Virus genome (UHGV): UHGV-0210098
Strand: one strand, 5' to 3'
DNA from: a virus
Length of the DNA: 64,000 nt
The position numbers and the translations under genes are program-made. Below the pieces are notes generated by a model. The model was not told where the DNA came from, made no database searches, and was given only the letters and a program-made list of their open reading frames with translations. Positions 3,036-27,650 of the stretch are shown here, piece by piece; within the stretch, counting starts at the first letter, position 1, and the number at the start of each line of letters is the position of its first letter.

Positions 3036-3533
3036 ATGGGCATATTAGGCAGTGCAATAGGTGGCGCATTGGGCATCGGAGGAAGCATCTTCGGTGGCAT
3101 CAGTGCTTCAAAGGCGATGAAGAAAGCCAAGAGGATTGTTGAAGGAGAGATGAAAGACAATCAGAATTGGTATGACCGCCGCTATAACGAGGACGCTACA
3201 CAACGTGCAGACGCACAACGCATCCTCACAATGACAAATGACAATATCCGGCAACGAAACCAACAGGCAGCAGGAGCGCAAGCCGTTATGGGAGGCACGG
3301 ATGAGAGTGTGGCAGCGACAAAAGCGGCAAATAATCAAGCAATTGCTGATGCTACATCGCAAATTGCTGTCAATGGTGAACGCCGCAAAGACCAAATCGA
3401 AAGTCAATATATGCAGACGAAGTCCGACCTCAACGAGAAACTGAGAAACATTGAGATAGGTAAAGCAAATGCCGTCAGTCAAGCAGTGCAAGGTGTCGCA
3501 CAGGCAGGTTCTAACATGGCAGGATTATTCTAA
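3036..3533 (+). CDS. Hypothetical protein (165 aa) with a glycine-rich hydrophobic N-terminus, possibly a membrane or virion-internal protein
   Basis: The N-terminus MGILGSAIGGALGIGGSIFGGISAS is a glycine-zipper-like transmembrane segment. The rest is Q/A-rich and coiled-coil-like. Confidence 0.5.
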   Translation: MGILGSAIGGALGIGGSIFGGISASKAMKKAKRIVEGEMKDNQNWYDRRYNEDATQRADAQRILTMTNDNIRQRNQQAAGAQAVMGGTDESVAATKAANNQAIADATSQIAVNGERRKDQIESQYMQTKSDLNEKLRNIEIGKANAVSQAVQGVAQAGSNMAGLF

Positions 3534-3546
3534 AACATTACACACA

Positions 3547-4769: not shown

Positions 4770-7700
4770 ATGACGAACCCTATAAATGAAAGTACAAAGT
4801 GGCTTTACGGAAAACTCACAGGATTAGGTTATAATGTGGGCAAGGATGTCAATGAGTTTGACAACCTTATACGCACAAATGCAGAATCGCGCCAATGGGC
4901 GTATGATACGGCAAGGAAGAACGGTCTCAACGTGGGCAAAGATATGGACGAGTTTTCCTCGCTGGTTGGTGGTACAGTTGCCCCTCCTGCCACTGCGCAA
5001 GCGCAACCACAACAGACACCGGCCACAGCCTCAACCGTGAAACCGATAACTGATAATACCGCACAGCAAGCAACCGTACAACCTGCACAGGCACAAGGTC
5101 AGAAACTCACTCCCATGCAGCAAATGGGCTTTCAGATGCAGATTGACGGCATGAACGCTCGCATGAAGCAGCAGAAAGAGCAGTTTGACCAACGCATGGA
5201 GGGCATAAAGAAAGGTAATAAGCCCGGTGCATTCATGGGCGAGCGTGAGTTCAACCCGACAACCGGCAAGATGGAAACCAACTACTACACTACGCAGGGT
5301 GAACGTGTTGGCTCTATGTTTGAACAGAGCCAACGCAACACAGAATACAATCAGTGGTGGGAAAACAACACCGAGGACGGAAAACGGCACAAGGAACAGA
5401 GGCTGCAACGCGAGTTTGACGAGCGTTTGGCCACTCTATGGCAGCGTCATAACCCAACAGAGGGAGAAAACGCAGCAGAACAGGCATGGTCAGCAGCAGA
5501 GGCACGGCAGAAGGAGGCGGCGAACCGCATCGCGAGTGAGATTTACAGAGACCGAGGCGACGTCATGAGTAATGCCGCATTTCTTGGTGGACACGAGAAC
5601 CACATCATGAATGCGGCAATGAACACCCACCGTAAACAAGTGGCTCACTACACCAACTTCGACCTCGACCGTCTGATGAATGACTCGTGGGACAATCTTG
5701 GAGAGGCAGGACAGAAAGCACTTATTGACGACTGTTATAAGATGCTCCGCTACCGCAATCCGGGATTGGATGAACTTGTGTTGTATAATCAAGCCAAACA
5801 GTTTGCTCGTCAGCAGTCAGACCTCAGACTTTATAACCTTGCTGTTGAGAAAAACCTGCCCAAGGGTAATCTTGAGTATCTCATGCGCAAGATTGGCGAC
5901 ATGAATATGATTGCCAATATATCCAAAGGTATTGCAGTATCATCTGCCAACGGAAAGACCGGCGACATGGCCGCATACGAAGCCGCCAACGAACAATACA
6001 GACAGGACGGCCACAAGATACTTGATGTAACCGGCACCGTTGCCGGATTTGCCCTCGACCCCACTACATGGCTGTCGGCAGGTGTCGGCAGTGCCGCAAC
6101 AAAGGGCGCGATGTGGGCAGGTGGCCGTTATCTCGCAGGACGAGGAGCAACAGCAGCAGTTACCAATGCCGCCACTCGTCAATTTGCCACCTCCATGACC
6201 GGGCGCATTGTCGGTGGTGTGGTCGGCGGTGCTGCCAACTTCGGCACATTTGAAGGTGTCAAGGAAATGGAAAACCAATTTGCCCACGGTGGCCATGTCG
6301 TAGGACAGGACGAAACCGGCAAATACATCAACGAGGGATATTCCGCCGGGGCAGTGGCCGGGCAGTTTGGTCATGGTCTGTTGATGGGTGGTGCCATTGG
6401 TTGGCTTGGCCCCGTGTCGGGCAATGTTTCCGACAAACTCGTCAGAGGAACATCAAGCACAGTTGGCAAGGTTGCTACTCGCGCAGGTGTCTATACAGGC
6501 GCAACTATGGCCGAGGGTACAATCTTCTCCGTTCCCGAATGGATAGAGGGCGACCGTGACGGCTTTGACGTGTGGACTGACAACATGGCCATGATGGTAG
6601 GTTTCAAGGCCAAACACATATTAAAGAGTGCCGGTGGTGTTCTCGGCGACCTCAAAGCATCATTTGACAGCCCTGCCAACGGAGCAAAGAACCGCCTCGA
6701 CTTTGAGAGTAGACTGCGTATGCGCATGGATACTCCTTCAGACGGCGGCATGGCACTGACAAAGGACGAGGAGGCCGAACTGAAGCGTTATGGTTACGAC
6801 CTGCGCGACCTTGTGGAGAGTGCCGAGCGCACCGGCGATGCTTCCGAGGGAAACATCATTGCAAAGGACGCCCCCGAAATCGTTAGCCGACTGACAGACA
6901 TGGTAACAGACCCACGTGTCAGTGAGGCAGCGAGAGCCAAGATGTATTACTATGCCACTGGCCGCAAACTTCCGATGTCCACCATTATGAAAGGTGAACT
7001 CTATGAGGACGGAAAGGGAGGATTTATCGTGGAGTCGCAGGGTGCAAATGGCGTGATAACCTCTCGCTCATTCAAGAACCGCAAGGAGGCCGACCTTGAA
7101 TTGCAGCGCATCAACCGTCAGACCGAACTCAACAGCATAGAAATTGGCGAGCGTTATCAGCAGACAACCGACTTCGAAAACCGTTTACAGGAGGCTTGCC
7201 GCACCGTTGCATCTGAAAACGGTTGGGACATGGTGGAGGTTTACCGTACCTGCGAAGAAGCACGGCGGAATTACCTCCGTGGCGGCGACAAGCAATTTGA
7301 CGAGGCACAGCAGAACATCCTCCGCAAGGTAACGGATGCAATGGGCGAATTTGAGGAAACCGGCGCAACCGATGCCATGCGTGGCCGCATCAACGAGAAA
7401 TACGGCGTGGATATTGACGCAGCAATCCGTAAGGAGGCCAACCGCCGCACACAGGCCGAGCAGACTGCCATAGACGAGTATATAGATGAACTTATCCCCG
7501 ACAAAGCAAAAGACCGTCCTGTTGAGGATGCAGATGTTGAGGACATCACCAATCAGAAGAGTTTGCCCGGCGGCGAGGAAACTTTTGATGATGAATTTGG
7601 TAACGAACCTATCGACCCTCGCTTTGACGGTGGAGAGGTTGCGCTCGACTACGACCCTCATCAGCCCGGTGGTGAGCAGAAACCCATTGGCCGTGCCGTC

Positions 7701-10700
7701 ATGAAATACAAAGACCGTCCTGTCGAGGTATTGAGTGGCCGTGTTGTGATGATGGAGGACGGCACCATGATTGACAATGAACGCAGCGATAACTCTATTG
7801 TCATTCGCGACCTCGCCACCGGTGAGATTGAAATGGTTTCACCCGAAGCCATTCTTTCATACGAAGAATATGCAGCCTCTGTTGATGAGGCTGAAACGAC
7901 ATCAGAGCAAGGTAAAGCACCCGAAGCATCTGTCGAGGAGCAATCCAAATACACCTCCGGCCAAATCAAGATACGAAACTCTGATGGCACCGAAACGCGC
8001 GGTGTCCTTACAGGCTATGTAGATGAGGACGGCAAACATGAGTATTATGTTGAGGGCGACCTGCAACATCTTCACTATGCTTCAGAGTTTGAACTCGACA
8101 ACATTCTTTCAGACTATCAGCCGGACGCGCCGCAAGAACCCATCACGCCGAAAGACAGTCAAGGCAACGACCTTTCCGTAGGTGATGAGATAGTTCTGTC
8201 AGCCGGTCGCACAGGCATAGTCAGCGACATACAGCCCAACGGTGCTGTAACAGTAGACCACAACGGCGAGAGTGTGACCTATAATGAACAATTCGGCGAC
8301 ATTACTGCCACTGGGTTGCGCAAGGTTACGCCTACTCCTGTTGCAGAAGAAGTACCGACCACCGTTCCAGAAACCGCAGAAAGTGTTCCCACAACAGCGG
8401 AAACAACCGAAAATCCGTCTGTACCTGTTCCCAATTCTTCTGAAAATGGTAACAATGGCGGTGTAATTATTCCAACTGATGGCAACATTGGTGCGGAGAA
8501 TATTCCTGTCCCTGCGGCAGCACCTCAGAGTGAGGTGGCACAACCACAAGCAGTAGAGCCTACACCATTGCAGCGTATTCCTCGTGATGAAAAGGGAGAA
8601 CCTATCTTTGAACAGGCAGACAGCCCCGAAACCGCGTGGGATGCCCTTGTGGAGTTTAGCGAGGGTGATGCTGCCACGGCCAAAGAAATTGCAGATACTA
8701 TGGCCGAGGAGAAGCGCAAAGCATTTGAAAAGGCACAGAAGCAGAAACCTAAAGGCAAGACCCCGACAGAAATCCTTGCATCGAAGAAAACCAACTCTGC
8801 CGAACTCGCAAAGGCAGAGAGTGAGTATCTCCATTGGCAAAAGATGGCAAATGTAGAACAGAGCCGTCAGAACGCAATCCGCTCACAGCAGGAGGCCGAG
8901 GCTCGCCAACGTGCCGCTGAACGTGCAGAGGCAGAAAAGGCAGAACGTGAGGCACGAGAAGAAGCGGCAAGACTTGAGCGTGAAGCATTGGAGGGTATTC
9001 CCGAGTGGCACATGGACACTCCCGAGAATGCCCGAAAGCGTGGTGCGCGCCGTTATGGCGGTCAGATGTTCACTCGTCAAGAGCCTGTTCAGAATGTGCC
9101 TGGTAAAGAGGTTGAGGTCAAATTCTCACAGAAAGACCTCCCGAAAGGCCGTGTCGCTGTCATTGAGGCTGAGCAGTTGCAGCCCTCACACACACAGGGA
9201 CAGCGCAATCCTATGTTCTTTATAGAGGAGGCACAGCCCAAGAACCGTTCCGAGGCCGTTTCCATGAACGCTGCAAGAGATATGGCCGAGGGCATCCGTC
9301 CGCAGGAAATCACCGGCAGCGCAACAGCGTACACAGGCGCGCCCACTGTGAACACTCGCGGCGAGGTCATTCAAGGCAACAACCGTTCAGATGCACTCCG
9401 TTACCTTTGGCAGAACAATTTGCCGGAGCAACAGCAGACCTACAAGCAATATCTTCTCGACAATGCCGAGCAGTTAGGACTTGACACTGATGCCGTTGGT
9501 GCCATGCAGCACCCTGTCCTTGTCAATATGCTTGATGTGGACGATGCAGATGCCATACGTTTAGGACAAATGACCGCACAGGACACCGAGAGTGGAGGCA
9601 TTGAACGTATCAAGCCCAAGAATGTAGCGCAGAAACTTGGTGAAGGTATGCGCTCCTTTGCCACTCGTCTACTCAGCAGCGGCGATGATGAGGCCACCTT
9701 TGGGCAGCTCGTAGACCGTAACGGAACAGAGGTGTTGAAGTGGATGAACCATGTAGGTGCAATCAGCAACACTCAATTTCAGTCCGCTTTTGACAGCAAG
9801 GGCAGTCTTACGGCAGAAGCCAAGAACGACTTGCAGAAAGTCCTCTATCAAGCCGTATTCAAGGGAGGTTCACAGCAGTTGGAAGAAATGTTTGACCGGC
9901 TCCCGGCCAAAGCACAACGCGCAATCCTCTCCACCGCGTTCCGCGATATGGACTCTCCTTTTGCCGGGAAGATGCTCCCCGAGATACAATCATCTATCAT
10001 TGCCTATAATGAGTTGATGCAAGACCCGGCATTTGAGTCTGCAAAGAACTTGGAGGAAGCATTGAGGACAGTTGAGGCGTTCAAGCGTCAGATTTCTCTT
10101 GATGATAGGTTTGAACAGTATATGCCGGCCGATAATTTCAGTAACTTTGCACTGCAATTGGCGGCAATGTATAAGGCGAGCGATATGTCGCAGACCACTA
10201 TCGCATCCTATTTCAATCAGATGTACGACCTTGCACAAGGCAAAAAGGCCGCTACTCTCTTTGAGGAAGCCGACACAACGGAATATCCTCTTGCCGAGGT
10301 TATCAAACAAGTATTAGGAATAGATTATGAACCTGCAAAGAATGGAAACAACAATGTCACAGATGGAGGTGCTAATGTGGCTCTCCGTAATCAAGTCGGC
10401 CAAGGAGGGGAACTCCGAGGCAATGAACCACCTGCAAACGGAGAACAAACTCCGACAGGAACAGAACCGTCCGAGCGTGGAGCAGGAACTTCAGACAATA
10501 GCATTGAAGGAGGACGAGATACCAATGTCAACGGAGGAACAGTTGATGTTGAAGCAAATGGAGGATTGGCAGATGAAATAACTCCTGCTATCGGTCCATT
10601 TGGGGAAATATATACACAATTCAAAGGAAAATCCCAAGAGGCAATAGCCTATTTGCTTGACAAGAAAAGTGGTGAAGCAGTCGGCGCACTCCACCATAAA

Positions 10701-19700: not shown

Positions 19701-22700
19701 TTCACTGAAATTTCCTCCAATCCTAAAGAGGTTGCACGTTATATCAGTGAGCGTGTTATCCAATTTGGTGGTGAGTCAGCAATCCTGTATGGCGACTTCC
19801 CGATGTCAAGTAGCGATGGAAAAGACTACAAGCGGCTGAAAGACTTGTTGGCGCAAGTAGGCGGAAACACTCTGCTCGATGTTATGCGTGTGGAGGGCAA
19901 CCATACGAGAAGTGCCAATGATGAAGGACTACTCTATGAACCAGGCAGCGAATATGGAGCATCACAGAACGGTGATATTCGTTTCCGTGAAGTTGAGGAT
20001 GATGCCATATTGACAGAGTTCGCAGAGGGCAAGACCGTAAAGGCATATCGCACCATGCAGGTGATTGACGGCAAACTCTACTCGCCTATGGCTACAAAGG
20101 TGGGCGGCAAGTCTACGCCGGAAATCAAACTCGGAGTGCCGGAACAGAGCGAGGAACACCCGGAAATCATCAAAGGCACAAAGGTAGGTCGTGACGGTAT
20201 CGAACAAGGTTATGTTGTAATTGACAAAGGACTTGGCAAGGGTACTCTTACTGTGGCCTACAATCCGTATGCCCATACCTCGCGTACTGTGCTCAACGAC
20301 CAATTCTCATCTGCCTATATCCGTCCGAACCTTGTCACCGTAGAGGTGGAGGTGCCGGAGAGCGAACTGACAAGCGGATACCGCGCACCGATGGCCAAAG
20401 ACGCTGTAGGTGAAATCTCATGGCATAGCGGTAGTGTAAGCGGACAGTTGGCCGAACTCGGTCAGCCTCGCCGCGTTATCCTCACCCGGTACGACAGACC
20501 TGTACGCATCGTTCCATTCCGTGAGGTTGCCGAAATGATTGCAGCGCAACTTGACGGAACAGACATTGCCATACCTTACAATGTTGTGCAGCCGCAGTTG
20601 CGCTCCGAATTGGAACGCCTCGGGATTGCCGTCAGTGAAGAAGCCACCGGCACCGTTGCCGATGCTTCCGATTTTGGCAAAGCCGAATATGTTACAGACC
20701 AAGAGATAGAGCGCATCAATGCTCATCAGCAGGAAATGGCTCAGACTTCCAATGATGCCAAGACAGGCCATGCAGAAAGGCTTTCAAAGAAGTTTGGCAC
20801 TCCTGTACGCATTGTTACAGATGCCAATGAACTGACTAACGCAAATGCGGAGCAACAAGCGCGTATGCGTAAGAGCAAGGGCTTCTATGACCCTGCCACA
20901 GGTGAGGTTGTTGTCGTGCTGCCCAACAATGCAAATGTGGAAGATGTGGCAGAGACCGTATTCCATGAAGTCGTAGCCCACAAGGGACTGCGTGAAATGA
21001 TAGGCGATGAAAACTACGATACCTTCTGCGATGAGGTGTACGACCACCTTAAAGACGACTTGAAAAAACAGGTAGACGAAGAAAGTACACGCCGCTTCAT
21101 GGGAGAACCGGGAAAGGACTATCAGCATCACCGCCGTGTGGCTATTGATGAAATGTTCGGTCGCATGTCAGAGAAAGGTTTTGAGGACTTCACCAAGGCA
21201 GAGCGCGGAATTTGGGCGAAACTCAAAGCAAAGGTATTAGAGGCCATCAACAAGTTCCTCGGCTCGCTGAAACTACCGAAATGGGTAAAACTCGGTGATA
21301 ATGAGTTGCGCTATATTCTGTGGCGCAGCCATGAGAAACTGCGCTCAAAAGGCGACTATGTGGACATGGCTCGTGATGCAGCAAAACGCAACGAGTTAGG
21401 CCTGTCAAACGATGTCCGTTTCCGTGATAGTGAGACCGGCGATATTTGGAATGACAGAAGTGTTGGCTTGGAAGAACGTATCACCAACGCAGCCATAAGA
21501 TTGAGCAACAATCAAAGTGGCGACCTCACACTGCGCAATGATGCAATGAAAGCAATTGGTGGAAACCTTACCTCTCTCCGTAGAGCAATGGCCATTCAGA
21601 AGCAGTTCGACCAATCCACCGTTAAACGAGTGGCAGACCTTGCCCGAATACTGATGCAGAATGGCTATCTCTCCGGCATGAGTTCCGGGGAAATGCAGCG
21701 ATTGATTTCTGCTGTAAAAAATTCCGTCGGCCATGCTGCTGTAAAGGAAAGCACTCAGAAGATTATGGACATCATGGTTGATAATCAACTGCGTAATGGT
21801 GAGGCCACACTTCGCAAACTCCTTACTATTCGTGGAAGCAAGGTCGATGCAAGAGGTGTCGAAGTGCAGGGCGCACTCGATGTAGACGGACAGCGCACTA
21901 TGGAGGTTGTCAAGAAAGCCATGTCACTCAAGGAGGACGACATTAACGACCGAATAGCAGATGCACTAAACCGTATGAGCGACCCCGACCAAACTATTGC
22001 AGACAAAGCCGCAATAGAATATACCGGCCTCAACATGGCTCTCGACTATGTTCAAAACATTGCCGACAGTAAGGCCGAGGAGAAAGCATTGCGTGACGGA
22101 CTGAAAACTGTCAAAGAAGATAAGGATGCCGGACGCATGACTGAAGATGCCTACAAACAGTTTGTAGATGCTACGGAGAATGCAATCCGCAAGAATAAGA
22201 TTGAAAGAGCTGAGGCTTACTTCAACCTTGTTGGCCGTCTGTCAGACTCCCTGCGAGGAAGCATTGAGAATGCAAAAGCATTCCGCGAGGCAGAAAAAGC
22301 ACGTATCAACGAGATACACCACAATGCCAACTCCGACATGGAGGGCAGACCGACCAACGAGCACCATAAGGACAATTGGAAAGACAAGTTTGTCAACAAT
22401 GGTTTCATTCAGTCACTGTTCGCTCCTCTCGGCACCTTTGACCAGATACTCCGCGTGTTCGGCAACAAGAGTGCGGGCGGCGAGGGCTACCTGTGGAACC
22501 GCTTCATGCGCGGTTGGGTAGATTGCCGCAACAAGGAGTTACTCGGTGTCAAAGAGAAATTCGCACGTCTGGACGAGAAGGCCGCTGAATTGTTCGGTAA
22601 GGGCAAGATATGGGGCAATCTCATCAGAATGGAAGCGAAGATGCCGAAGGCTACCGTTTCATTCTGGGACGGTGGAGAAATGCGCGACCATGAACTGACA

Positions 22701-25124
22701 CAGGGCAACCTGCTCTACATCTACATGGTTGACAAAATGACGGACGGACGCATGAAGCTGCGCCGTATGGGTATCACGGAGGACGATATAACAAGCATCG
22801 AAAACTTCCTCGACCCACGTTTCAAGGTACTTGGCGATTGGTTGCAGAATGAATTTCTTGTTTCCACTCGCAACGAGTATAACGAAACACACAAGCGTAT
22901 GTTCGGCGCATCAATGGCCGCGATTGAGAACTACTTCCCTCTGAAGATATTGGCAAATGCCAGGATAGACAAAGAGGAAGATGTCAATCAGCCCAACAAG
23001 CCGGACGGTATCACTACAAAGACAGGCAGCATCATCAAACGCCGTGTGAACAATCTCGCGCTCGACATTACAGGCGCGGACGCACTGAGCGTGATACTCG
23101 ACCATATTACACAGATGGAGCATTGGAGCGCATACGCCGAATGGAACAGGGACCTCAACACCCTGCGCACATACAAGCGTTTCCGCAACCAAGTTATCAA
23201 CATGACAACCGTCTATGGTGGAGGCCGTAAGCTGTGGGAGAATTTCAACGACCTGTGTCTTATGGCCGCAGGAGAATACCGTCCTTCTGTGTCGAAACTC
23301 AACAAGAGCGCGGTCAACCTCGCCAAAGGTGTAACCGCCGCAAAGGTCAGCTTCCGAATGTACACAGCATTGAAGCAGTTCCTTTCCGCTCCTGCCTATA
23401 TCCCAGAGGTGAGCACAGCCGCCATAGCAAAGAGCATCGCAAATCCCTATGGTGATTTCAAGTGGTGTCTTGAGAATATGCCGATATTCCGTGAGCGTTG
23501 GCACTCGCGTATCAGTGGCGACCCGCGACTTCTCAAATCAGATATGGATTGGAATATGTGGCGTAGTCGTGTGATGGAAATATCCTCCCGCATCGGTATG
23601 ACCCCAAACGCATTTGTGGATGCCGTAACAGTGAGCATCGGCGCACGAGCCATGTATGAAACCCGACTGAAACAATATCTCAAGGAGGGTTATCCGACTG
23701 ATTCCGCCGAGAAACGAGCCATGCAGGACGCCACAATTCTGTTCAACCAGACACAGCAGTCCTCAGAGTCACCTTTCATGTCAACTATGCAAGCAGATAA
23801 GGATTGGTTTAGCACCATCTTCACCGTGTTCCGTAACTCGGCCATGTCATACACCCGGCAGCAGTATGACGCTATGCGTAATCTCAAGCGTAACCTCACA
23901 CCCGGACAGCGGGCCAAGAGCATTGAGTTTATGACAAAGCAGATACTCCGCGATTGGGACGTTGACCCCGACACTGCCACGGATGCAGAGCGTGACCAAG
24001 CACAGGGCGCAGCCCAGAAGCGTTTCCGCAGACAACTCAAAAAAGACGTCCTACGAGTTGCCACATTCGGCTATATCCTTGAATGGCTATGGAACCTCGG
24101 TCCATATCTTCCATATCTCATCTTCGGATATTATCTTCTTGAAAAAGATAAGATGTGGGAGGATGCTTTCACACACGCCTATTTCGGAAGTGTAGAGGGT
24201 CTGACCGGCGGTGACGTAATTAGCAGTTTCGGCAATATGTGGGCAAGCGGTGAATGGAATTGGAACCAACTCAGCAAGGATATGCCGTTGGCGAGCGACA
24301 TCAACACTATTGCCAACAAATTTATCGGAGGCAAGAATGCCGAGGCCATCAATGACATCATCAACCTGTTGGTACAGTCGGGTGTTGGTATGAACCCACA
24401 GAGCATTACAGATGCAGCAGTGGCCATTACCGATGCTTGCGGCGACGACCCGGCATTGAGCCATGAAGCAGCCATATTCGTTATGCGTGTCCTGCAAGTA
24501 CCGCAAAGCCAAATCGACAAAATGTATTTTGACGAGATTGGATTGAGTGGTGAGGAGGCAAGCAAACTCACGCCGGAGCAGTTGGCACAGCGTTATGCCG
24601 AGTACAAGGTCAAGCGCGGCACCCCTCTTGCTCCGTGGTCGTGGGGCGATGAGGAACGCCTCGACAAATATCACAAGGTTGTTGAGGACAAGATGAAAGA
24701 GCGTTTGGATAGCCGAGGTGATGCCGCTGTAAATGAGGCATACGCCGACTTTGAGGCACGTTACAAGGCCGTTGATGAAAAGGCTAAAGAGGCAAGAGCC
24801 TTAATGAGAACAGACTATGCCGCAGCAGCCCAAGCACACGCAGCTCTGCAACAAGACCCCGACTTTACGCTGTATCAGCGTTTCGGAAGCCTTGACAAGC
24901 AACTCGGACGCATTTCCAAGATGTGGCTTACCTCCAAGACCCCGGAAGAAGCAAACCTCGTGGCATCTGCCGTAACCTCATATCGCGCCGGCATGGTGAA
25001 AGTATTGCAAGCAGAAACCGTAGAAAGCCAACAGTCAGCCATGAAAGAACTGACTGACCTCCTTAACGATTTCTACTCCAAATATCAAGCCATGCAGCCA
25101 AAACCGAGCCAACTCAACAGATAA
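4770..25124 (+). CDS. Giant multidomain 'polyvalent' protein (6784 aa) of DarB-like architecture, putatively virion-packaged and anti-defence
   Basis: A single uninterrupted 20,355 nt ORF. It contains, in order: a ParB-like motif region, a pyrophosphatase-like domain, an N6-adenine MTase, an SF2 helicase, a RadC-like JAB domain and an HExxH zincin domain, separated by low-complexity linkers. It is located directly upstream of the portal-like gene. Confidence 0.85.
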   Translation: MTNPINESTKWLYGKLTGLGYNVGKDVNEFDNLIRTNAESRQWAYDTARKNGLNVGKDMDEFSSLVGGTVAPPATAQAQPQQTPATASTVKPITDNTAQQATVQPAQAQGQKLTPMQQMGFQMQIDGMNARMKQQKEQFDQRMEGIKKGNKPGAFMGEREFNPTTGKMETNYYTTQGERVGSMFEQSQRNTEYNQWWENNTEDGKRHKEQRLQREFDERLATLWQRHNPTEGENAAEQAWSAAEARQKEAANRIASEIYRDRGDVMSNAAFLGGHENHIMNAAMNTHRKQVAHYTNFDLDRLMNDSWDNLGEAGQKALIDDCYKMLRYRNPGLDELVLYNQAKQFARQQSDLRLYNLAVEKNLPKGNLEYLMRKIGDMNMIANISKGIAVSSANGKTGDMAAYEAANEQYRQDGHKILDVTGTVAGFALDPTTWLSAGVGSAATKGAMWAGGRYLAGRGATAAVTNAATRQFATSMTGRIVGGVVGGAANFGTFEGVKEMENQFAHGGHVVGQDETGKYINEGYSAGAVAGQFGHGLLMGGAIGWLGPVSGNVSDKLVRGTSSTVGKVATRAGVYTGATMAEGTIFSVPEWIEGDRDGFDVWTDNMAMMVGFKAKHILKSAGGVLGDLKASFDSPANGAKNRLDFESRLRMRMDTPSDGGMALTKDEEAELKRYGYDLRDLVESAERTGDASEGNIIAKDAPEIVSRLTDMVTDPRVSEAARAKMYYYATGRKLPMSTIMKGELYEDGKGGFIVESQGANGVITSRSFKNRKEADLELQRINRQTELNSIEIGERYQQTTDFENRLQEACRTVASENGWDMVEVYRTCEEARRNYLRGGDKQFDEAQQNILRKVTDAMGEFEETGATDAMRGRINEKYGVDIDAAIRKEANRRTQAEQTAIDEYIDELIPDKAKDRPVEDADVEDITNQKSLPGGEETFDDEFGNEPIDPRFDGGEVALDYDPHQPGGEQKPIGRAVMKYKDRPVEVLSGRVVMMEDGTMIDNERSDNSIVIRDLATGEIEMVSPEAILSYEEYAASVDEAETTSEQGKAPEASVEEQSKYTSGQIKIRNSDGTETRGVLTGYVDEDGKHEYYVEGDLQHLHYASEFELDNILSDYQPDAPQEPITPKDSQGNDLSVGDEIVLSAGRTGIVSDIQPNGAVTVDHNGESVTYNEQFGDITATGLRKVTPTPVAEEVPTTVPETAESVPTTAETTENPSVPVPNSSENGNNGGVIIPTDGNIGAENIPVPAAAPQSEVAQPQAVEPTPLQRIPRDEKGEPIFEQADSPETAWDALVEFSEGDAATAKEIADTMAEEKRKAFEKAQKQKPKGKTPTEILASKKTNSAELAKAESEYLHWQKMANVEQSRQNAIRSQQEAEARQRAAERAEAEKAEREAREEAARLEREALEGIPEWHMDTPENARKRGARRYGGQMFTRQEPVQNVPGKEVEVKFSQKDLPKGRVAVIEAEQLQPSHTQGQRNPMFFIEEAQPKNRSEAVSMNAARDMAEGIRPQEITGSATAYTGAPTVNTRGEVIQGNNRSDALRYLWQNNLPEQQQTYKQYLLDNAEQLGLDTDAVGAMQHPVLVNMLDVDDADAIRLGQMTAQDTESGGIERIKPKNVAQKLGEGMRSFATRLLSSGDDEATFGQLVDRNGTEVLKWMNHVGAISNTQFQSAFDSKGSLTAEAKNDLQKVLYQAVFKGGSQQLEEMFDRLPAKAQRAILSTAFRDMDSPFAGKMLPEIQSSIIAYNELMQDPAFESAKNLEEALRTVEAFKRQISLDDRFEQYMPADNFSNFALQLAAMYKASDMSQTTIASYFNQMYDLAQGKKAATLFEEADTTEYPLAEVIKQVLGIDYEPAKNGNNNVTDGGANVALRNQVGQGGELRGNEPPANGEQTPTGTEPSERGAGTSDNSIEGGRDTNVNGGTVDVEANGGLADEITPAIGPFGEIYTQFKGKSQEAIAYLLDKKSGEAVGALHHKEIGDIDLVYGKEGTGHSDGYGLAKLAKYHPEVLNNLQDILNDMVVTKRSENRVQLESEKYQAAVRLKWDNKKKTWLLTMFEKKNSVLDNTTDTGKTLVGNGNDTATPENTVISDGKDNTSLPNEQISEEEIATQHADVEEEQTLQASIKAAASEVNTEPTPAQAEAGNYKKGHITIGEFDITIENPAGSVRKGVDADGKEWQTTMANTYGYIKGTEGVDGDHIDVFLHSDMDQWDGRKAFVVDQTNTDGSFDEHKVMLGFNDKDEAMSAYLANYDADWAQTHPGLRISETNIEDFNKWVESSHRKTKPFADYSTVSKVSDDAPATKSAPVVEGNGYKVDPKPYTNKQGKTLDTYLVTFDRDFSKEELSAIRSKAKALKGWYDRETRGWMLRSSDDAKAFAEDIIGKSDDEVADEAPLSMADMERPTEAPVKKVDVPGVFDALKTKGEAKLSDHAKTVEQPKPKKRKWISDEDAAEFDSLRDNLRNHFGKSGDMVQEDAVGYGQPQPKQMDAEVLRMGTRMTYLMMKGGLRSFSDYCEAMKDELPDIFDDMRPHLKSLYAAAQNMEEVMQLGWDEEMDDRKTVKAFDVYNFDKPEAKDIIATAQHTVDEQASQQQTEQIIQTLKDKRNEQRKKEADDTSADTEIIVDKAETTASEVESKLEAATTEQDAERLSHSIDKELDEVNKQLALLGYYEAEEVDKDFNEAYGYMRNAERKATQDAHNLATQLATDLGLTIDPKDRVRKSKYNFGSKIAHSNVAPAGGEVYIKLPLAEGRELSMTLSLDKNEPWLERGRAERPDDLVLTRIMFRVEDKTGKSTRYVTSNDFISPTSTYDELLAHIRRSVRHLLPEETVQPATPLTPQPGEDMVQMAERVSKDRKAKKPQVKPEQPIGDLFGGLFDNIDAEADKPQSVTTKTKENEKSNVQPRTKEEGRGGQQPRPNEPLGESAKHEDERTDGGRMAERGGEHTVSDTERSGSVSQPHQSERGVTEPKNTRNNHTERGVDYAPKGEKARIDANLAAIELAKKLLASGATATPKEMEVLRRYSGWGGLGAAFNEGQAWAPNPINKRLRELLTPEEYEAAVMSRNSAYYTPAPVIDAMWDIAKALGFKGGNIMEGSAGIGNIIGLMPSDISKRSDIHAVEIDDTTGGILSLLYPDANVEIHGFEKTRIGNGTVDLAITNVPFVTGLHVMDESGDSDLSKKFRDIHDFCIAKNVRKLREGGIGIFITSSGTLDKSQKLRNWLVGDKEGCADVVGAFRMNNQTFGGTAATSDIIVIRKRVNGRKSPNAIDVSTVSVARTASFEDDKGKTKDLPMLINRYFIEHPENMGGEMFFGFEQGDTYRPTSIGLFPTRTADQAGRMAAWVQRMADMDWKTEAVSKPTEQTSHINETLGEGVKEGSMVTDSDGNLCVARMGRAVPLTINKNKIKGRTKEECFKDYSEIKDALAEVLKYQTEHEDDAGLQPLLDRLNKAYDTFVERYGNLNKNNNLAWLRNDVDFSSIVALETYSEKGSKDGQKIKTYGKTDIFSRRVVEKESEPAPKNVKDGIIASIYKFGRIDPKYLATQLGKSDAEVKQEIIDSGLGFENPTTGQMEVSYEYLSGNVREKLRQAREANEAAGGGYEANIKALEAVVPMNIPAHLIEFTLGSSWVEPKLYERYIKERTGLDVKLTNAGGTWNMNEPYYTDEPKNKEMGVRSEKLDIFIPGHKLIEAAITNKTITVNRTVKDTDGTHTETDPAATTACATKVDEIRQDFKDWAREQMQSDPDLSMRMEEVYNEQFNNSVPKSIPDEFVPEHFGGAATIVGGKPFQLRPHQAKAVIRATTQPVLLAHEVGTGKTYTLITTAMEMRRLGTARKPMIVVQNATVGQFVASAKALYPNAKVLTLEDADRNAEGRRAFYAKIKFNDWDMIVVPQSVFERIPDSIERQTQFIQDVIDEKLMVLEQMQEADPSGKSQIVRAAKQEIERKRNELSQLANGGTTDKKKEKDAKKAAVTRQNAEVKAREMLDRATDDVEDFDSMGIDAVLVDEAHEYKHLGFATAMQRGVKGVDPSYSKKSQGVFLKVQSVLEKTGGKNVVFATGTPISNTAAEIWTFMRYLMPADVMKDYGIYYFDDFVRNFGNLQQMMEFKTNGKFGEVNRFAGYVNLPELVRIWSTVADTVLTREAGGVSDKIPQMEGGKATDLFMPQTRALRSVMKYVKEQLDEYEKMSGKEKKENSHIPLTMYGIAKAAAVDARLVQRDAEDDANSKCNEAVRQTLRTLEETKDYKGTVAIFADNYQRKNHETDKVEFNLFEDIRKKLIDAGVPSEQIVVMKSGMTVNKKLDIFSRVNSGEVRVVMGSTFTLGTGVNIQERLHTLIHLDAPNRPMDYTQRNGRILRQGNLHNEWGMPVRVLRFGVEDSLDVTAYQRLKTKGAIAYSIMNGKQLMDNSMENRSLEEEQDLFGDITAQLSGSEYALLKNQIEKEVRKLTAQLKNWEADQTYIHNRKRQIAGQNREAEQRIAANKTYLEKVEAATIGDITVGKLSFPSIDAMEDFFTEQNKKKAELQEKVRKDGYSSRPATSDIFISVGGFDFHVHTEISRETKSQQGSLFYTAPAKMTYSCPELGIEAMPVKENKVKNAVTEIMNDVVSGEDFRGRIEAAERYIERNNAELQSISARDGVPFKDAEALAKAEEKLAEYEELMKQEMEAKEAKYAEMDKDVEAASNIELTEEDSDDVASEPVARYSAENSNFASRYETKDGKTIGYTSENPKAYGVSEAKDGTANSGTREADIQRQGDNLLAGRNSRLNTEAGEFSLVERVFTKNGSFNFTSGEKIESADDVAFIFSALEDAAKEHAFVVYVKDGRPTVVELGMGTFTATMVDIPTASLAYNRIRPDQVYFVHNHPSGNLKCSLQDVQMLQKIEGMCDVPVSGVIINLKTGKYGTFDTSNNTGVGNKRTPENESRLTVHTLDKQIFAPDYDPMAQSLVRMPSDVAQFLNSHRMGDRAKVSFLILTRAGRIVGNIHTPFTEISSNPKEVARYISERVIQFGGESAILYGDFPMSSSDGKDYKRLKDLLAQVGGNTLLDVMRVEGNHTRSANDEGLLYEPGSEYGASQNGDIRFREVEDDAILTEFAEGKTVKAYRTMQVIDGKLYSPMATKVGGKSTPEIKLGVPEQSEEHPEIIKGTKVGRDGIEQGYVVIDKGLGKGTLTVAYNPYAHTSRTVLNDQFSSAYIRPNLVTVEVEVPESELTSGYRAPMAKDAVGEISWHSGSVSGQLAELGQPRRVILTRYDRPVRIVPFREVAEMIAAQLDGTDIAIPYNVVQPQLRSELERLGIAVSEEATGTVADASDFGKAEYVTDQEIERINAHQQEMAQTSNDAKTGHAERLSKKFGTPVRIVTDANELTNANAEQQARMRKSKGFYDPATGEVVVVLPNNANVEDVAETVFHEVVAHKGLREMIGDENYDTFCDEVYDHLKDDLKKQVDEESTRRFMGEPGKDYQHHRRVAIDEMFGRMSEKGFEDFTKAERGIWAKLKAKVLEAINKFLGSLKLPKWVKLGDNELRYILWRSHEKLRSKGDYVDMARDAAKRNELGLSNDVRFRDSETGDIWNDRSVGLEERITNAAIRLSNNQSGDLTLRNDAMKAIGGNLTSLRRAMAIQKQFDQSTVKRVADLARILMQNGYLSGMSSGEMQRLISAVKNSVGHAAVKESTQKIMDIMVDNQLRNGEATLRKLLTIRGSKVDARGVEVQGALDVDGQRTMEVVKKAMSLKEDDINDRIADALNRMSDPDQTIADKAAIEYTGLNMALDYVQNIADSKAEEKALRDGLKTVKEDKDAGRMTEDAYKQFVDATENAIRKNKIERAEAYFNLVGRLSDSLRGSIENAKAFREAEKARINEIHHNANSDMEGRPTNEHHKDNWKDKFVNNGFIQSLFAPLGTFDQILRVFGNKSAGGEGYLWNRFMRGWVDCRNKELLGVKEKFARLDEKAAELFGKGKIWGNLIRMEAKMPKATVSFWDGGEMRDHELTQGNLLYIYMVDKMTDGRMKLRRMGITEDDITSIENFLDPRFKVLGDWLQNEFLVSTRNEYNETHKRMFGASMAAIENYFPLKILANARIDKEEDVNQPNKPDGITTKTGSIIKRRVNNLALDITGADALSVILDHITQMEHWSAYAEWNRDLNTLRTYKRFRNQVINMTTVYGGGRKLWENFNDLCLMAAGEYRPSVSKLNKSAVNLAKGVTAAKVSFRMYTALKQFLSAPAYIPEVSTAAIAKSIANPYGDFKWCLENMPIFRERWHSRISGDPRLLKSDMDWNMWRSRVMEISSRIGMTPNAFVDAVTVSIGARAMYETRLKQYLKEGYPTDSAEKRAMQDATILFNQTQQSSESPFMSTMQADKDWFSTIFTVFRNSAMSYTRQQYDAMRNLKRNLTPGQRAKSIEFMTKQILRDWDVDPDTATDAERDQAQGAAQKRFRRQLKKDVLRVATFGYILEWLWNLGPYLPYLIFGYYLLEKDKMWEDAFTHAYFGSVEGLTGGDVISSFGNMWASGEWNWNQLSKDMPLASDINTIANKFIGGKNAEAINDIINLLVQSGVGMNPQSITDAAVAITDACGDDPALSHEAAIFVMRVLQVPQSQIDKMYFDEIGLSGEEASKLTPEQLAQRYAEYKVKRGTPLAPWSWGDEERLDKYHKVVEDKMKERLDSRGDAAVNEAYADFEARYKAVDEKAKEARALMRTDYAAAAQAHAALQQDPDFTLYQRFGSLDKQLGRISKMWLTSKTPEEANLVASAVTSYRAGMVKVLQAETVESQQSAMKELTDLLNDFYSKYQAMQPKPSQLNR
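9100..9420 (+). other. Domain of the giant protein: ParB/Srx-like (ParBc) nuclease-fold segment (tentative)
   Basis: Motif pair RVAVIEAEQLQPSHTQGQRNP and VIQGNNRSDALRYLWQ. These resemble the ParB N-terminal domain motifs (ParB box GxxR..A), by memory only. Confidence 0.35.
11199..11632 (+). other. Domain of the giant protein: family-I inorganic pyrophosphatase-like module, shortened
   Basis: ITIENPAGSVRKGVDADGKEW...NTYGYIKGTEGVDGDHIDVFL...VVDQTNTDGSFDEHKVMLGF aligns by eye to E. coli Ppa ([21 protein letters not shown]...[21 protein letters not shown]...MTDEAGEDAKLVAV). The signature D-G-D-x-[IV]-D-V metal ligands are retained. The R43/Y55 segment is missing. Confidence 0.5.
13690..14530 (+). 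other. Domain of the giant protein: N6-adenine (amino) DNA methyltransferase
   Basis: AdoMet motif I MEGSAGIGNIIG and catalytic motif IV variant ITNVPF (the NPPF/DPPY family), plus RYSGWGGLGAAF. This is the same class as the P1 DarB MTase module. Confidence 0.7.
16050..17900 (+). other. Domain of the giant protein: SF2 (SNF2/DEAD-like) helicase
   Basis: Motif I HEVGTGKTYT, motif II VLVDEAHE, motif III FATGTPISNT, and C-terminal motifs VVMGSTFTLGTGVNIQ and QRNGRILRQGN (motif VI). Confidence 0.8.
18960..19480 (+). other. Domain of the giant protein: RadC-like JAB/MPN metalloprotease domain
   Basis: JAMM signature H-N-H-P-S-G-x7-S-x2-D (FVHNHPSGNLKCSLQD), matching the RadC HxHPSG...S..D pattern. 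Confidence 0.6.
20790..21160 (+). other. Domain of the giant protein: zincin-like HExxH metallopeptidase (ArdC C-terminal / MuF-associated type)
   Basis: Motif ETVFHEVVAHKGLRE, preceded by VVVLPNNANVEDVA. Confidence 0.5.
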
Positions 25125-27188: not shown

Positions 27189-27650
27189 ATGAAAGATAAC
27201 AAAACAAAGAAAACGATTTGCATCGACTTTGATGGTGTGCTCCATGATTACTCAAACGGTTTTCAAGGTAAAGATGTATTCGGCGACATGATACCGAATG
27301 CTGACGATGGCACACAGGTACTACACGAAAAAGGGTGGAAGATTATTATCTACACTACACGCCCTAAGACGGCTGCTCTCGAAAAATGGCTTAAAGACCA
27401 CAAGATTGCATACGACTACATTAACGAGAACCCCGACCAACCCGATGACTCAAAGGGTGGAAAGCTCATTGCCGACATCTATCTTGATGATAGAGGTATG
27501 ACATTCCGAGGCCGTTGGGATAAATGGCTTATTGGAGATATTGCTGCTTTCAAACCAAGTGGCAGTCCTGGTGTAAAGGACGAAATGGAGAAAGAATATA
27601 ATGTCGCCAAGAAAAGCATCATCGAACTTGCAAAGTGCGCTAAATGCTAA
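27189..27650 (+). CDS. HAD-superfamily phosphatase, 5'(3')-deoxyribonucleotidase-like (153 aa)
   Basis: HAD motif I in ICIDFDGVLHDY (DxDGV) and a C-terminal IADIYLDDR acidic motif. Phage nucleotidases of this type are common. Confidence 0.5.
   Translation: MKDNKTKKTICIDFDGVLHDYSNGFQGKDVFGDMIPNADDGTQVLHEKGWKIIIYTTRPKTAALEKWLKDHKIAYDYINENPDQPDDSKGGKLIADIYLDDRGMTFRGRWDKWLIGDIAAFKPSGSPGVKDEMEKEYNVAKKSIIELAKCAKC

What the first reader, a model, noticed from the sequence alone, without database searches (positions are those of the whole stretch)
4770..25124. A 6784 aa single-ORF polyvalent protein encoded immediately upstream of the portal gene
One uninterrupted 20.4 kb reading frame stacks at least six recognisable enzymatic modules: ParB-like, pyrophosphatase-like, N6-adenine MTase, SF2 helicase, RadC-JAB and HExxH zincin. 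These are separated by low-complexity linkers, with about 2000 aa at the N-terminus and about 1200 aa at the C-terminus that carry no motif I can recognise. MTase plus helicase is the DarB (phage P1 defence against restriction) core. Polyvalent proteins of this kind are known to be packaged in virions and injected to neutralise host defences. Their position next to portal or MuF genes is the usual signature. This particular domain combination and size appear exceptional, and the unassigned regions could hold undescribed anti-defence activities.
Basis: partly seen in the sequence, partly recalled or inferred. Interest (0 to 1): 0.85.

Follow-up and report, generated by a model that had tools for sequence, protein, structure and literature searches.

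The report
Giant DarB-like polyvalent phage protein
A gut Bacteroidales temperate phage spends about a third of its genome on one 6,784-residue multi-enzyme protein of an already described kind (a DarB-like "polyvalent" protein, probably carried in the virion and injected), and this size is normal for its phage clade.

Summary
The ORF is real: 4770-25124, 6,784 aa, one stop, 60 nt upstream of a P22-type portal gene. It is intact in at least 10 independent assemblies, and dN/dS is 0.04-0.18 in every block. A PBECR1 nuclease was missed. The "HExxH zincin" is really an invariant HExxxH domain with zincin-like topology, and no profile or fold search assigns it to a family.

The MTase-helicase core aligns end to end with the virion-proven DarB-like giants of Bcep22-like podophages, and collinearly but weakly with P1 DarB. 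So this is a phage-type polyvalent protein (Iyer et al. 2017).

The size is not exceptional. Relatives in the same clade reach 6,400 to more than 7,388 aa, and the isolated Bacteroides phage BKO1-TP3 has the same layout and is annotated "DarB-like antirestriction".

New details found here:
- A position-locked N-terminal module of about 1,000 aa.
- An N-terminal tandem motif of about 60 aa in all giants, a candidate capsid-targeting signal.
- Two interchangeable C-terminal cassettes: LPD38-type, and ours, an all-alpha 1,240-aa module with no Pfam family or structural relative.
- Intragenic mosaicism.

Packaging and injection are inferred, not shown. Verdict: new member of a known kind, of moderate interest.

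The parts
4770..25124 (+). Giant polyvalent protein gene, 6,784 aa (about 750 kDa, estimated from length)
   Evidence: dN/dS is 0.04-0.18 in all blocks against L002, L015 and L019. The frame is intact in at least 10 independent assemblies.
4794..4973 (+). N-terminal tandem motif (two ~28-aa repeats, aa 9-37 and 41-68), followed by a P/Q/A/T-rich linker. Candidate capsid-targeting signal (inferred).
   Evidence: Present in two copies at the N-terminus of every complete giant, including the divergent BKO1-TP3 and L018, and in no other ORF of the window or the loci. Precedent: the N-terminal 30 aa of P1 DarB act as a capsid-targeting signal.
4938..8219 (+). Conserved, position-locked N-terminal module (aa ~57-1150) with no family assignment. 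It includes a Gly/Ala/Ser/Thr-rich stretch at aa ~400-620.
   Evidence: No Pfam, PHROG, NCBIfam or PDB hit. 244 clusters at 50% identity match it, always at the N-terminus of proteins mostly 4,000-6,988 aa long. dN/dS ~0.10-0.12.
9153..9530 (+). DdrB-like ParB domain (aa 1462-1587), with a GNNR motif
   Evidence: PF18763, 4e-23
10686..10955 (+). PBECR1 predicted RNase domain (aa 1973-2062), in a variable cassette
   Evidence: PF18809, 8.1e-7, 29.9 bits against a gathering score of 27.6. The region aa 1900-2100 is absent or replaced in many relatives.
11184..11600 (+). InPase (type I inorganic pyrophosphatase-like) domain, aa 2139-2277
   Evidence: PF18823, 1.9e-53
12282..19022 (+). DarB-like core (aa 2505-4751): N6-adenine MTase (aa ~3046-3253, motif IV TNVPF at 3155) plus SNF2/SF2 helicase (aa ~3782-4433, GTGKT at 3807, DEAH at 4000)
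   Evidence: phrog_10089 at 1,824 bits. tblastn covers 94-99% of the core against the Bcep22-like giants. Three collinear HSPs match P1 DarB and the NVPF motif is shared. Pfam helicase domains. PADLOC oMTase.
19131..19403 (+). RadC-type JAB domain (aa 4788-4878), JAMM motif HxH-x7-S-xx-D at 4853-4866
   Evidence: PF04002, 1.7e-6, above the gathering score. Motif found. Present only in a subset of relatives.
20757..21404 (+). HExxxH domain (aa ~5330-5545): putative metal-dependent hydrolase or processing peptidase. H5398, E5399, H5403 and a downstream Glu are invariant.
   Evidence: Alignments A3 and A5. AF2 model pLDDT 81 and pTM 0.71, three strands followed by the motif helix. No significant Pfam, PDB or Foldseek match.
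21405..25121 (+). Type-A C-terminal module (aa 5546-6784): all-alpha, many invariant polar residues, no known family
3036..3533 (+). orfA, 165 aa, with a Gly-rich hydrophobic N-terminus. Weakly T7-gp14-like internal virion protein candidate.
   Evidence: PF24072 at E 0.001, 19.5 bits, below the gathering score of 27, covering profile positions 5-164 of 187. It has 5,425 relatives, and many 84-93%-identical ones carry a precomputed PF24072 assignment. hhalign to T7 gp14 itself is not significant. Syntenic in the relatives.
3469..4758 (+). orfB, up to 429 aa (the true start is probably ~3547). T/P-rich linker followed by charged helical segments. Function unknown; ends 11 nt before the giant gene.
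   Evidence: Syntenic in the relatives. No family or PDB match.
25185..27164 (+). Portal protein (P22-like)
   Evidence: phrog_156, 3.5e-100. PF16510, 1.8e-45.
27647..29815 (-). Large terminase subunit
   Evidence: phrog_2, 3.7e-18

Best explanation
The gene encodes a phage-type polyvalent protein: a DarB-like giant made late with the head proteins.

The likely mechanism is as follows.
1. The protein is loaded into the procapsid, probably through its conserved N-terminal tandem motif and N-terminal module.
2. It is ejected into the Bacteroidales host ahead of or together with the DNA.
3. There its modules act at once:
   - The SNF2 translocase-coupled N6-adenine methyltransferase rides along the incoming DNA and protects it in cis from restriction.
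   - The DdrB-ParB, InPase, PBECR1 and RadC-JAB modules attack or deplete host nucleotides, nucleic acids or signalling molecules.
   - The HExxxH domain, and possibly the JAB domain, may cut the polyprotein at the low-complexity linkers.

The N-terminal module and the C-terminal module are the constant chassis, and the accessory enzyme cassettes between them are exchanged by recombination.

Shown here: the domain identities, the homology to virion-proven giants, the head-operon context, purifying selection along the whole frame, and cassette exchange.
Inferred: packaging, ejection, processing, every enzymatic target, and the role of the terminal modules.
For: Domain content:
- Pfam polyvalent-protein domains: ddrB-ParB, PBECR1, InPase, SNF2/Helicase_C and RadC.
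- phrog_10089 'DarB-like antirestriction' scores 1,824 bits.

Homology to characterised giants:
- The core aligns at 28-32% identity over 94-99% of its length with the BcepIL02, DC1, JC1 and Ralstonia-phage giants.
- JC1 gp69 was detected in CsCl-purified virions with 51 unique peptides (PMC9144972).
- Three collinear HSPs match P1 DarB, and motif IV NVPF is shared.
- P1 DarB is a head protein targeted by its N-terminal 30 aa (PMC9024508).

Context:
- orfA, orfB, the giant and the portal are tightly packed on one strand, with gaps of 11 and 60 nt.
- This order is conserved in 17 of 18 viral loci, and a portal follows within 1.5 kb in 40 of 63 genome loci.

Constant ends, variable middle:
-.
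- The N-terminal tandem motif is in all giants and only in giants.
- The N-terminal module is always N-terminal.

Selection and recombination:
- dN/dS is 0.04-0.18 throughout, and the gene is mosaic against L011.

The conceptual framework and the MTase-SNF2 mechanism were proposed in PMC5512222.
Against: - There is no direct evidence of virion association for this phage or for BKO1-TP3; the paper describing BKO1-TP3 does not mention the protein.
- No MuF, SLT or LPD38 domain is detectable in this protein.
- The processing peptidase is unproven: HExxxH rather than HExxH, with no family or fold match.
- Similarity to P1 DarB itself is weak (E 1e-16 to 3.5e-5, 27-29% identity over three short segments).
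- Portal sequences do not co-vary with the C-terminal cassette type, so no portal-docking role is indicated.
- The phage also has a separate MTase and a separate SNF2-type helicase in its replication arm, so methylation of progeny DNA need not depend on this protein.
Confidence: 0.7

Rival explanations
1. The protein is primarily a structural ejection (internal-core) protein, the functional analogue of T7 gp16 or the P22 ejection proteins. Together with orfA (gp14-like) and orfB it would build the trans-envelope conduit of a podovirus, and the enzyme domains would be secondary passengers.
For: - orfA gives a near full-length match to the T7_gp14 family profile (E 0.001), and many close relatives carry that Pfam assignment.
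- The portal is P22-type and the capsid protein SU10-type, which suggests a podovirus.
- The operon order small, medium, giant resembles gp14-gp15-gp16 and also JC1 gp67-gp68-gp69, all three of which are virion-associated.
- BcepIL02 gp70 starts with an SLT domain as T7 gp16 does.
- The C-terminal module is all-alpha with very long helices.
Against: - hhalign is not significant for orfA against T7 gp14 (2%), orfA against BcepIL02 gp68 (0.2%), or the C-terminal module against T7 gp16 (0.2%) and gp15 (2.9%).
- There is no SLT domain and no hydrophobic TM-like segment in the giant.
- The orfA Pfam score is below the gathering threshold.
Confidence: 0.15
2. The protein is not packaged. It acts in the cytoplasm of the producing cell or the lysogen, for example by methylating progeny DNA before packaging, or as a prophage-encoded defence or superinfection-exclusion system resembling DISARM or other MTase-helicase defences.
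For: - Weak PADLOC and NCBIfam matches to DrmD and to a PLD-type anti-phage protein.
- The element is temperate (integrase at 118-1605).
- No MuF or LPD38 domain is present.
Against: - The DrmD-type matches cover only the generic Helicase_C part and score 26-32 bits against curated cut-offs of 610-1,100.
- The best full-length homologues are virion proteins.
- The gene sits inside the head operon, 60 nt from the portal, across the whole clade.
- The domain set (InPase, DdrB-ParB, PBECR) is reported as phage-type polyvalent and predicted to be packaged (PMC5512222).
Confidence: 0.1
3. The single 20.4-kb frame is an artefact, either an assembly chimera or a run of fused genes or a pseudogene that is not translated as one product.
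For: - One relative, L013, has the frame interrupted inside the core: its longest open frame is only 2,801 aa.
- The protein database mostly holds fragments of 2,200 aa or less.
Against: - Uninterrupted frames of 5,553-7,323 aa occur in an isolated, completely sequenced phage and in at least 9 independent metagenomic assemblies.
- Full-length 6,000-6,988-aa relatives are in the representative library.
- dN/dS is 0.04-0.18 in all blocks, with third-position changes dominating.
- No internal stop is present.
Confidence: 0.02

Closest known systems
Phage-type polyvalent proteins (Iyer, Burroughs, Anand, de Souza and Aravind, J Bacteriol 2017; PMC5512222)
   Same: - Many unrelated effector domains sit in one polypeptide, joined by linkers.
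- The hallmark domains are present: N6A-MTase-SWI2/SNF2 dyad, DdrB-ParB, InPase and PBECR1.
- The gene lies among phage packaging genes.
- The sizes fit: the paper reports 2-15 domains per protein and proteins up to 12,242 aa.
   Different: - No canonical zincin MPTase (HExxxH instead), and no MuF, LPD36 or LPD38 detected.
- RadC is listed in one passage of that paper as restricted to conjugative-element polyvalent proteins, yet here it is combined with the phage-only InPase and DdrB-ParB.
- About 2,300 aa of conserved N- and C-terminal modules have no Pfam or LPD family.
DarB-like giant virion proteins of Bcep22-like podophages (Lessievirus: Bcep22 gp75, BcepIL02 gp70, JC1 gp69, DC1, and related Ralstonia phages); PHROG 10089
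   Same: - The MTase-helicase core is homologous end to end (28-32% identity, 94-99% coverage; 1,824 bits to the PHROG).
- The phages are temperate and about 60-65 kb.
- One gene takes a very large share of the genome: 22% in JC1, about 31% here if the genome is ~64.5 kb as in the near-identical contig of L011.
- Two small virion proteins lie just upstream.
   Different: - Those proteins start with an SLT lytic transglycosylase and end with LPD3 and LPD38. Ours has neither, and instead carries ParB, PBECR1, InPase, RadC, the HExxxH domain and the type-A C-terminal module.
- Their gene sits at the end of the structural module, far from the portal.
- Virion association is proven there by mass spectrometry and is untested here.
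Phage P1 DarB (with DdrB, DarA, Hdf, DdrA and Ulx)
   Same: - Collinear N6A-MTase plus SF2 helicase, with motif IV N-V-P-F.
- The gene is adjacent to the portal gene.
- A DdrB-type ParB domain belongs to the same system: a separate protein in P1, fused here.
[quoted passage not shown]
   Different: - P1 DarB is 2,255 aa and consists of the dyad only.
- Similarity is weak (27-29% identity over three segments).
- No DarA, Hdf, DdrA or Ulx homologues were identified here.
- P1 is a myovirus of enterobacteria.
Bacteroides phage BKO1-TP3 gp55 (PQ571269.1; Gut Microbes 2025, PMC12694917)
   Same: - Same clade and same synteny: integrase, two small ORFs, giant, portal, then TerL on the other strand.
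- The core is 60-67% identical and the portal 67% identical.
- It is annotated 'DarB-like antirestriction'.
   Different: - It is 5,553 aa and lacks the RadC block.
- It has an unrelated N-terminal ~1,000 aa (with a weak LPD14 match) and the LPD38-type C-terminus.
- The paper does not discuss the protein.
T7 internal core/ejection proteins gp14-gp15-gp16, and the N4 virion RNA polymerase, as examples of large ejected proteins
   Same: Large proteins stored in the capsid on the portal and ejected into the cell. There is a small gp14-like protein upstream, and the operon order is small, medium, large.
   Different: No detectable sequence or fold similarity between the giant and gp15 or gp16. The orfA-gp14 link is sub-threshold.

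Membership tests
Polyvalent proteins (Iyer et al. 2017) | Several biochemically unrelated effector domains in one polypeptide | tested here: met
   ddrB-ParB, PBECR1, InPase, MTase, SNF2 helicase and RadC-JAB
Polyvalent proteins (Iyer et al. 2017) | Encoded in a phage or conjugative element, linked to the packaging or transfer genes | tested here: met
   Integrase, portal, TerL, capsid protein and lysis genes are in the window. The giant-portal adjacency is conserved.
Polyvalent proteins (Iyer et al. 2017) | Zincin-like MPTase hub domain (HExxH plus a downstream Glu). This is common in the family (about 36% of members) but not obligatory. | tested here: inconclusive
   The motif is HExxxH with an invariant downstream Glu. 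No Pfam hit. The AF2 topology is zincin-like, but the best Foldseek E-value is 1.2.
Polyvalent proteins (Iyer et al. 2017) | Delivered into the recipient cell together with the DNA | not testable with these tools
   Needs virion proteomics or infection assays. Supported only by analogy with JC1 gp69 and P1 DarB.
P1 DarB | Collinear N6-adenine MTase followed by an SF2 helicase | tested here: met
   Three collinear HSPs: MTase 1e-16, helicase 6e-15 and 3.5e-5. Motif IV is TNVPF here and GNVPF in P1.
P1 DarB | Head-internal protein loaded through an N-terminal signal in a DarA/Hdf/DdrA/DdrB/Ulx-dependent pathway | not testable with these tools
   Only a DdrB-type ParB domain (fused) and a conserved N-terminal motif were seen. 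No DarA or Hdf homologue was noticed in the family scans of the neighbouring genes.
P1 DarB | Protects the infecting DNA in cis against type I restriction | not testable with these tools
   Requires genetics.
Bcep22-like DarB-like giants (PHROG 10089) | Full-length homology of the MTase-helicase core | tested here: met
   1,824 bits over profile positions 1294-3297. tblastn covers 94-99% of the core.
Bcep22-like DarB-like giants (PHROG 10089) | N-terminal SLT lytic transglycosylase | tested here: not met
   SLT is found in BcepIL02 gp70 but not in this protein.
Bcep22-like DarB-like giants (PHROG 10089) | C-terminal LPD38 domain | tested here: not met
   LPD38 is in gp70 and in the type-B relatives. 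It is absent here, and hhalign of type A against type B gives only 36% probability on the last ~120 aa.
RadC / JAB (JAMM) domain | Pfam PF04002 above the gathering score, and the HxH-x7-S-xx-D metal site | tested here: met
   28.4 bits against 22.1. HNHPSGNLKCSLQD at aa 4853-4866.
T7-type internal core (gp14/gp15/gp16) | Sequence or fold homology of orfA to gp14, and of the giant to gp15 or gp16 | tested here: inconclusive
   orfA matches PF24072 at E 0.001, below the gathering score, and relatives carry that annotation. hhalign to T7 gp14 gives 2%. The giant's C-terminal module against gp15 and gp16 gives less than 3%, and there are no fold hits.

The most novel reading that the evidence does not exclude
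The ends of these giants may form a previously undescribed protein-delivery chassis. One end is the N-terminal tandem motif plus the position-locked ~1,000-aa N-terminal module. The other is the type-A all-alpha ~1,240-aa C-terminal module, which replaces the LPD38 cap and has no sequence-family or structural relative. Together they would load a ~750-kDa polyprotein into a ~64-kb-genome capsid and get it through the tail. Alternatively, the type-A module, with its many invariant polar residues, could be a new enzyme directed against a Bacteroidales defence system.
Probability: 0.3. Interest if true: 0.6.

Novelty: new member of a known kind. Interest (0 to 1): 0.36.

Why it matters
These giants are common in gut Bacteroidales prophages: 70 species-level genomes for the type-A module alone, and 5,425 relatives of the neighbouring orfA. 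They take up about a quarter to a third of each phage genome, so they must be central to infection success in one of the most abundant bacterial orders of the gut.

They work as a natural cassette system. The ends are constant, and the enzyme modules in between are exchanged (PBECR nucleases, ART, kinase, RadC, InPase). That makes them a catalogue of candidate anti-defence activities for hosts whose defence systems are little studied.

The conserved N-terminal motif, if it is a capsid-targeting signal, could be used to load foreign proteins into Bacteroides phages.

None of this changes the concept laid out in 2017. The value lies in the specific, testable parts.

Tried and rejected
- **PDB sequence searches** of the N-terminal 1,450 aa, the core, the C-terminal 1,284 aa, orfA, orfB and the HExxxH profile found nothing significant.
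- **NCBIfam and PADLOC** gave only generic helicase, RadC and orphan-MTase hits far below the cut-offs, so a DISARM or defence-system reading was rejected.
- **Permissive Pfam scan** of ten unassigned segments gave only chance-level hits, apart from sub-threshold Eco57I.
- **Hydropathy scan** found no TM-like windows, so a membrane-inserting conduit reading is not supported.
- **Foldseek of the HExxxH model** was not significant. YbeY and BepA appeared among the top five at chance level.
- **Portal co-variation** with the C-terminal cassette type was absent.
- **hhalign** of type A against the LPD38-type C-termini, and against T7 gp15 and gp16, was negative. So was hhalign of orfA against T7 gp14 and against BcepIL02 gp68.
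- **Gill et al. 2011** (the Bcep22 proteomics paper) is not held in the library. JC1 proteomics was used instead.
- **No structure prediction** was made for the N-terminal module, because both jobs went to the C-terminal and HExxxH modules.
Full report
**1. The observation**

The window holds one open reading frame at 4770-25124 on the + strand, 6,784 codons with a single terminal stop. It lies 11 nt after a 429-aa ORF (orfB) and 60 nt before a portal gene at 25185-27164 (phrog_156 3.5e-100; Pfam P22_portal 1.8e-45). The large terminase is next, on the other strand (27647-29815). An integrase sits at 118-1605.

The rest of the window carries an SU10-type capsid protein, a second giant structural ORF, lysis genes and a replication arm. 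The window is therefore essentially a temperate tailed phage genome.

**2. Is the frame real?**

Yes, on four lines of evidence.
- An isolated, fully sequenced relative, Bacteroides phage BKO1-TP3, has the same layout with a 5,553-aa gene annotated "DarB-like antirestriction".
- Eighteen IMG/VR contigs carry relatives. Complete open frames there are 6,431, 6,436, 6,694, 6,779, 6,819, 6,935, 6,994, 7,237 and 7,323 aa, and two more exceed 7,125 and 7,388 aa before running off the fetched stretch.
- L011 is 95% identical to our protein over its full length.
- Nei-Gojobori dN/dS against three relatives is 0.04-0.18 for every block, including the regions with no recognisable domain.

An artefact or pseudogene is excluded. 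An exhaustive HMMER search with the N-terminus also finds many relatives of 6,000-6,988 aa.

**3. Domain anatomy (protein coordinates)**

- **aa 9-68:** two copies of a ~28-aa motif, followed by a P/Q/A/T linker.
- **aa ~57-1150:** a conserved module with no family in Pfam, PHROGs, NCBIfam or PDB.
- **aa 1462-1587:** DdrB-type ParB, 4e-23.
- **aa 1973-2062:** PBECR1 nuclease, above the gathering score.
- **aa 2139-2277:** InPase, 1.9e-53.
- **aa 2505-4751:** the DarB-like core, phrog_10089 at 1,824 bits. It holds an N6-adenine MTase at aa ~3046-3253 and an SNF2/SF2 helicase with GTGKT at 3807 and DEAH at 4000.
- **aa 4788-4878:** RadC-JAB, with an intact HxH-x7-S-xx-D metal site.
- **aa ~5330-5545:** a domain with an invariant H-E-x-x-x-H.
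- **aa 5546-6784:** a C-terminal module.

No hydrophobic, TM-like segment exists anywhere in the protein.

**4. The MTase and the DarB claim**

Pfam alone barely sees the MTase (Eco57I, E 0.018). Direct comparison settles it.
- P1 DarB gives three collinear HSPs: MTase 1e-16, helicase 6e-15 and 3.5e-5.
- P1 DarB has the same unusual motif IV, N-V-P-F. It reads TNVPF here, GNVPF in P1 and GNPPF in BcepIL02 gp70.

The much closer relatives are the "DarB-like antirestriction" giants of the ~60-kb Bcep22-like podophages and their Ralstonia, Klebsiella, Pseudomonas, Erwinia and Vibrio counterparts, at 28-32% identity over 94-99% of the 1,521-aa core.

JC1 gp69 (4,515 aa, 22% of its genome) was found in CsCl-purified virions with 51 unique peptides (PMC9144972). 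P1 DarB is a head protein loaded by its first 30 residues (PMC9024508). In P1, darB also abuts the portal gene.

**5. The "zincin"**

A literal HExxH does not exist in this part of the protein. The site is FHEVVAH.
- H, E, H and a Glu about 60 residues downstream are invariant in all relatives, including those only 33-38% identical and seven diverse full-length giants.
- An AlphaFold model built on 41 sequences is confident (pLDDT 81, pTM 0.71). It shows a three-stranded sheet followed directly by the motif-bearing helix, which is the zincin core layout.
- No significant match came from Pfam (including MPTase-PolyVal), from a profile search of PDB sequences, or from Foldseek. The best Foldseek E-value was 1.2, with the metallo-hydrolases YbeY and BepA among the top five only at chance level.

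I therefore call it a putative metal-dependent hydrolase with zincin-like topology. Membership in the zincins is not established.

**6. Constant ends, variable middle**

- **Block map.** Against 19 relatives, cassettes come and go: aa ~1900-2100 (PBECR1), aa ~5000-5200, and the RadC block.
- **Type-A C-terminal module.** It has at least 180 relatives at 39-90% identity. Different effector domains precede it in different proteins: MuF_C, PBECR1, PBECR3, LPD3, ART-PolyVal and Kinase-PolyVal. It occurs in 70 species-level genomes, nearly all Bacteroidales, with Muribaculaceae/Duncaniella closest. In most of these loci the carrying ORF exceeds 4,500 aa, and in 40 of 63 eligible loci a portal homologue starts within 1.5 kb downstream, usually 60-160 bp.
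- **Type-B C-terminus.** This second cassette is found in BKO1-TP3, L003, L007, L013 and L018. It is unrelated to type A by HMM and by hhalign. It carries LPD38, the domain that also ends the virion-proven BcepIL02 gp70.
- **The swap point.** L003 is 85% identical to our protein up to aa ~5545 and then switches to type B, so the two cassettes are exchanged by recombination at a fixed junction.
- **Portal.** Portal sequences do not co-vary with the cassette type.
- **N-terminal module.** It is equally position-locked: 244 clusters at 50% identity, always at residues ~1-1,150 of the target.

**7. The N-terminal tandem motif**

Every complete giant begins with two copies of the motif. That includes BKO1-TP3 and L018, whose next ~1,000 aa are unrelated to ours. 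A profile of the repeat finds it in no other ORF of the window or of any fetched locus. Our protein and its 95%-identical twin L011 differ precisely here.

By analogy with P1 DarB and the T4 internal proteins, I read the motif as a candidate capsid-targeting signal. This is an inference. The number of truly independent variants is small, about four.

**8. The ejectosome idea**

In favour:
- orfA (3036-3533) matches the Pfam T7_gp14 family over nearly the whole profile, but below threshold (E 0.001, 19.5 bits against a gathering score of 27).
- It has 5,425 relatives, and many of the close ones carry that assignment.
- The order small, medium, giant recalls T7 gp14-15-16 and JC1 gp67-68-69.

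Against:
- hhalign of the orfA profile against T7 gp14 or BcepIL02 gp68, and of the C-terminal module against T7 gp15 and gp16, is negative.

I keep this as a minority rival explanation.

**9. Mechanism**

The best-supported reading follows the polyvalent-protein framework of Iyer et al. 2017 (PMC5512222). The protein is made late, loaded into the head and ejected with the DNA. The SNF2-coupled MTase then protects the incoming genome, the accessory enzymes hit nucleotide, RNA or signalling targets, and an internal hydrolase may release the parts.

- **Shown:** the homology, the context, the selection and the modular exchange.
- **Inferred:** the packaging, the ejection, the processing and the targets.

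Confidence is 0.7.

**10. Novelty and interest**

The kind is known. The clade has an isolated member with the same annotation, although the paper describing it does not discuss the protein, and I found no paper that analyses these Bacteroidales giants.

New at the level of detail:
- the two family-less terminal modules;
- the LPD38 / type-A cassette alternation;
- the N-terminal tandem motif;
- the HExxxH variant;
- RadC combined with the phage-only InPase and DdrB-ParB domains (one passage of the 2017 paper lists RadC as conjugative-element-only, another mentions prophages);
- the intragenic mosaicism against L011, where blocks with zero substitutions lie next to blocks with dS 0.2-0.4.

The gene takes about 31% of a ~64.5-kb genome (20,355 bp against the 64,531-bp contig of L011), compared with 22% in JC1.

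I rate it a new member of a known kind, with interest about 0.36.

Noticed in passing
window 42401-44486 (VR 42401-42517, TR 42727-42843, RT 42996-44486): A diversity-generating retroelement. A reverse transcriptase (phrog_1423, 6e-78) follows the 2,778-aa structural ORF 34209-42545. A 117-nt repeat pair is 85% identical, and every mismatch is an A in the downstream copy (TR) replaced by another base in the copy inside the 3' end of the giant structural ORF (VR). This is the classic adenine-mutagenesis signature. The target is probably a receptor-binding tail protein.
   Followed up: yes
window 34209-42545 (+): A second giant ORF, 2,778 aa (phrog_14959, function unknown, with only faint minor-tail-protein hits). 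It is conserved in BKO1-TP3 as gp44. It is presumably a tail or fibre protein and is the DGR target.
   Followed up: partly
window 4770-25124 compared with L011: Intragenic mosaicism. Against the 95%-identical relative L011, aa 4750-5545 show 0-2 nucleotide differences, while the N-terminal module, the core and the C-terminal module have dS of 0.21-0.39. The first ~65 aa are a different variant of the tandem motif. This implies recent recombination inside the gene.
   Followed up: yes
L013 (IMGVR_UViG_3300006140_000020), locus ~4182: In this relative the giant frame is broken inside the MTase-helicase core, and the longest open frame is only 2,801 aa. It is either an assembly or sequencing error or a truly inactivated copy.
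   Followed up: no
window 27189-27650 (+): A 153-aa ORF between portal and terminase with phosphoheptose-isomerase and polynucleotide-kinase-like PHROG hits (8e-24). Among the fetched relatives it is present only here and in L011, so it looks like an inserted moron.
   Followed up: partly
window 49072-51909 (-): A 945-aa ORF in a markedly low-GC stretch (0.36 against ~0.48 elsewhere), matching only an unknown-function PHROG (phrog_32516, 7e-277) and no PDB sequence. It may be a horizontally acquired accessory or defence gene.
   Followed up: partly
window 47259-48951 (+): Three consecutive paralogous ORFs (199, 170 and 185 aa) of the unknown-function families phrog_19255 and phrog_35482, downstream of the holin-endolysin cassette at 45419-46472.
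   Followed up: no
window 53081-53794 (-) and 57541-58962 (-): The replication arm carries a separate stand-alone DNA methyltransferase (phrog_23224, 6e-62) and a separate SNF2-type helicase (phrog_62, 2e-99). The phage therefore has a second, unfused MTase and helicase besides those in the giant protein.
   Followed up: no
window 62294-62365 (-): A tRNA-Gln (anticodon TTG) near the right end, overlapped by the 5' end of the RecT-like ORF 61209-62372. It is either a phage-borne tRNA or a remnant of the attachment site. The ends of the element were not mapped.
   Followed up: no
window 3036-3533 (+): orfA belongs to an extremely abundant metagenomic family: 5,425 relatives at E <= 0.001. An identical protein is seen on 30 contigs, one of 740,844 bp, which points to integrated prophage copies in bacterial chromosomes.
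   Followed up: partly
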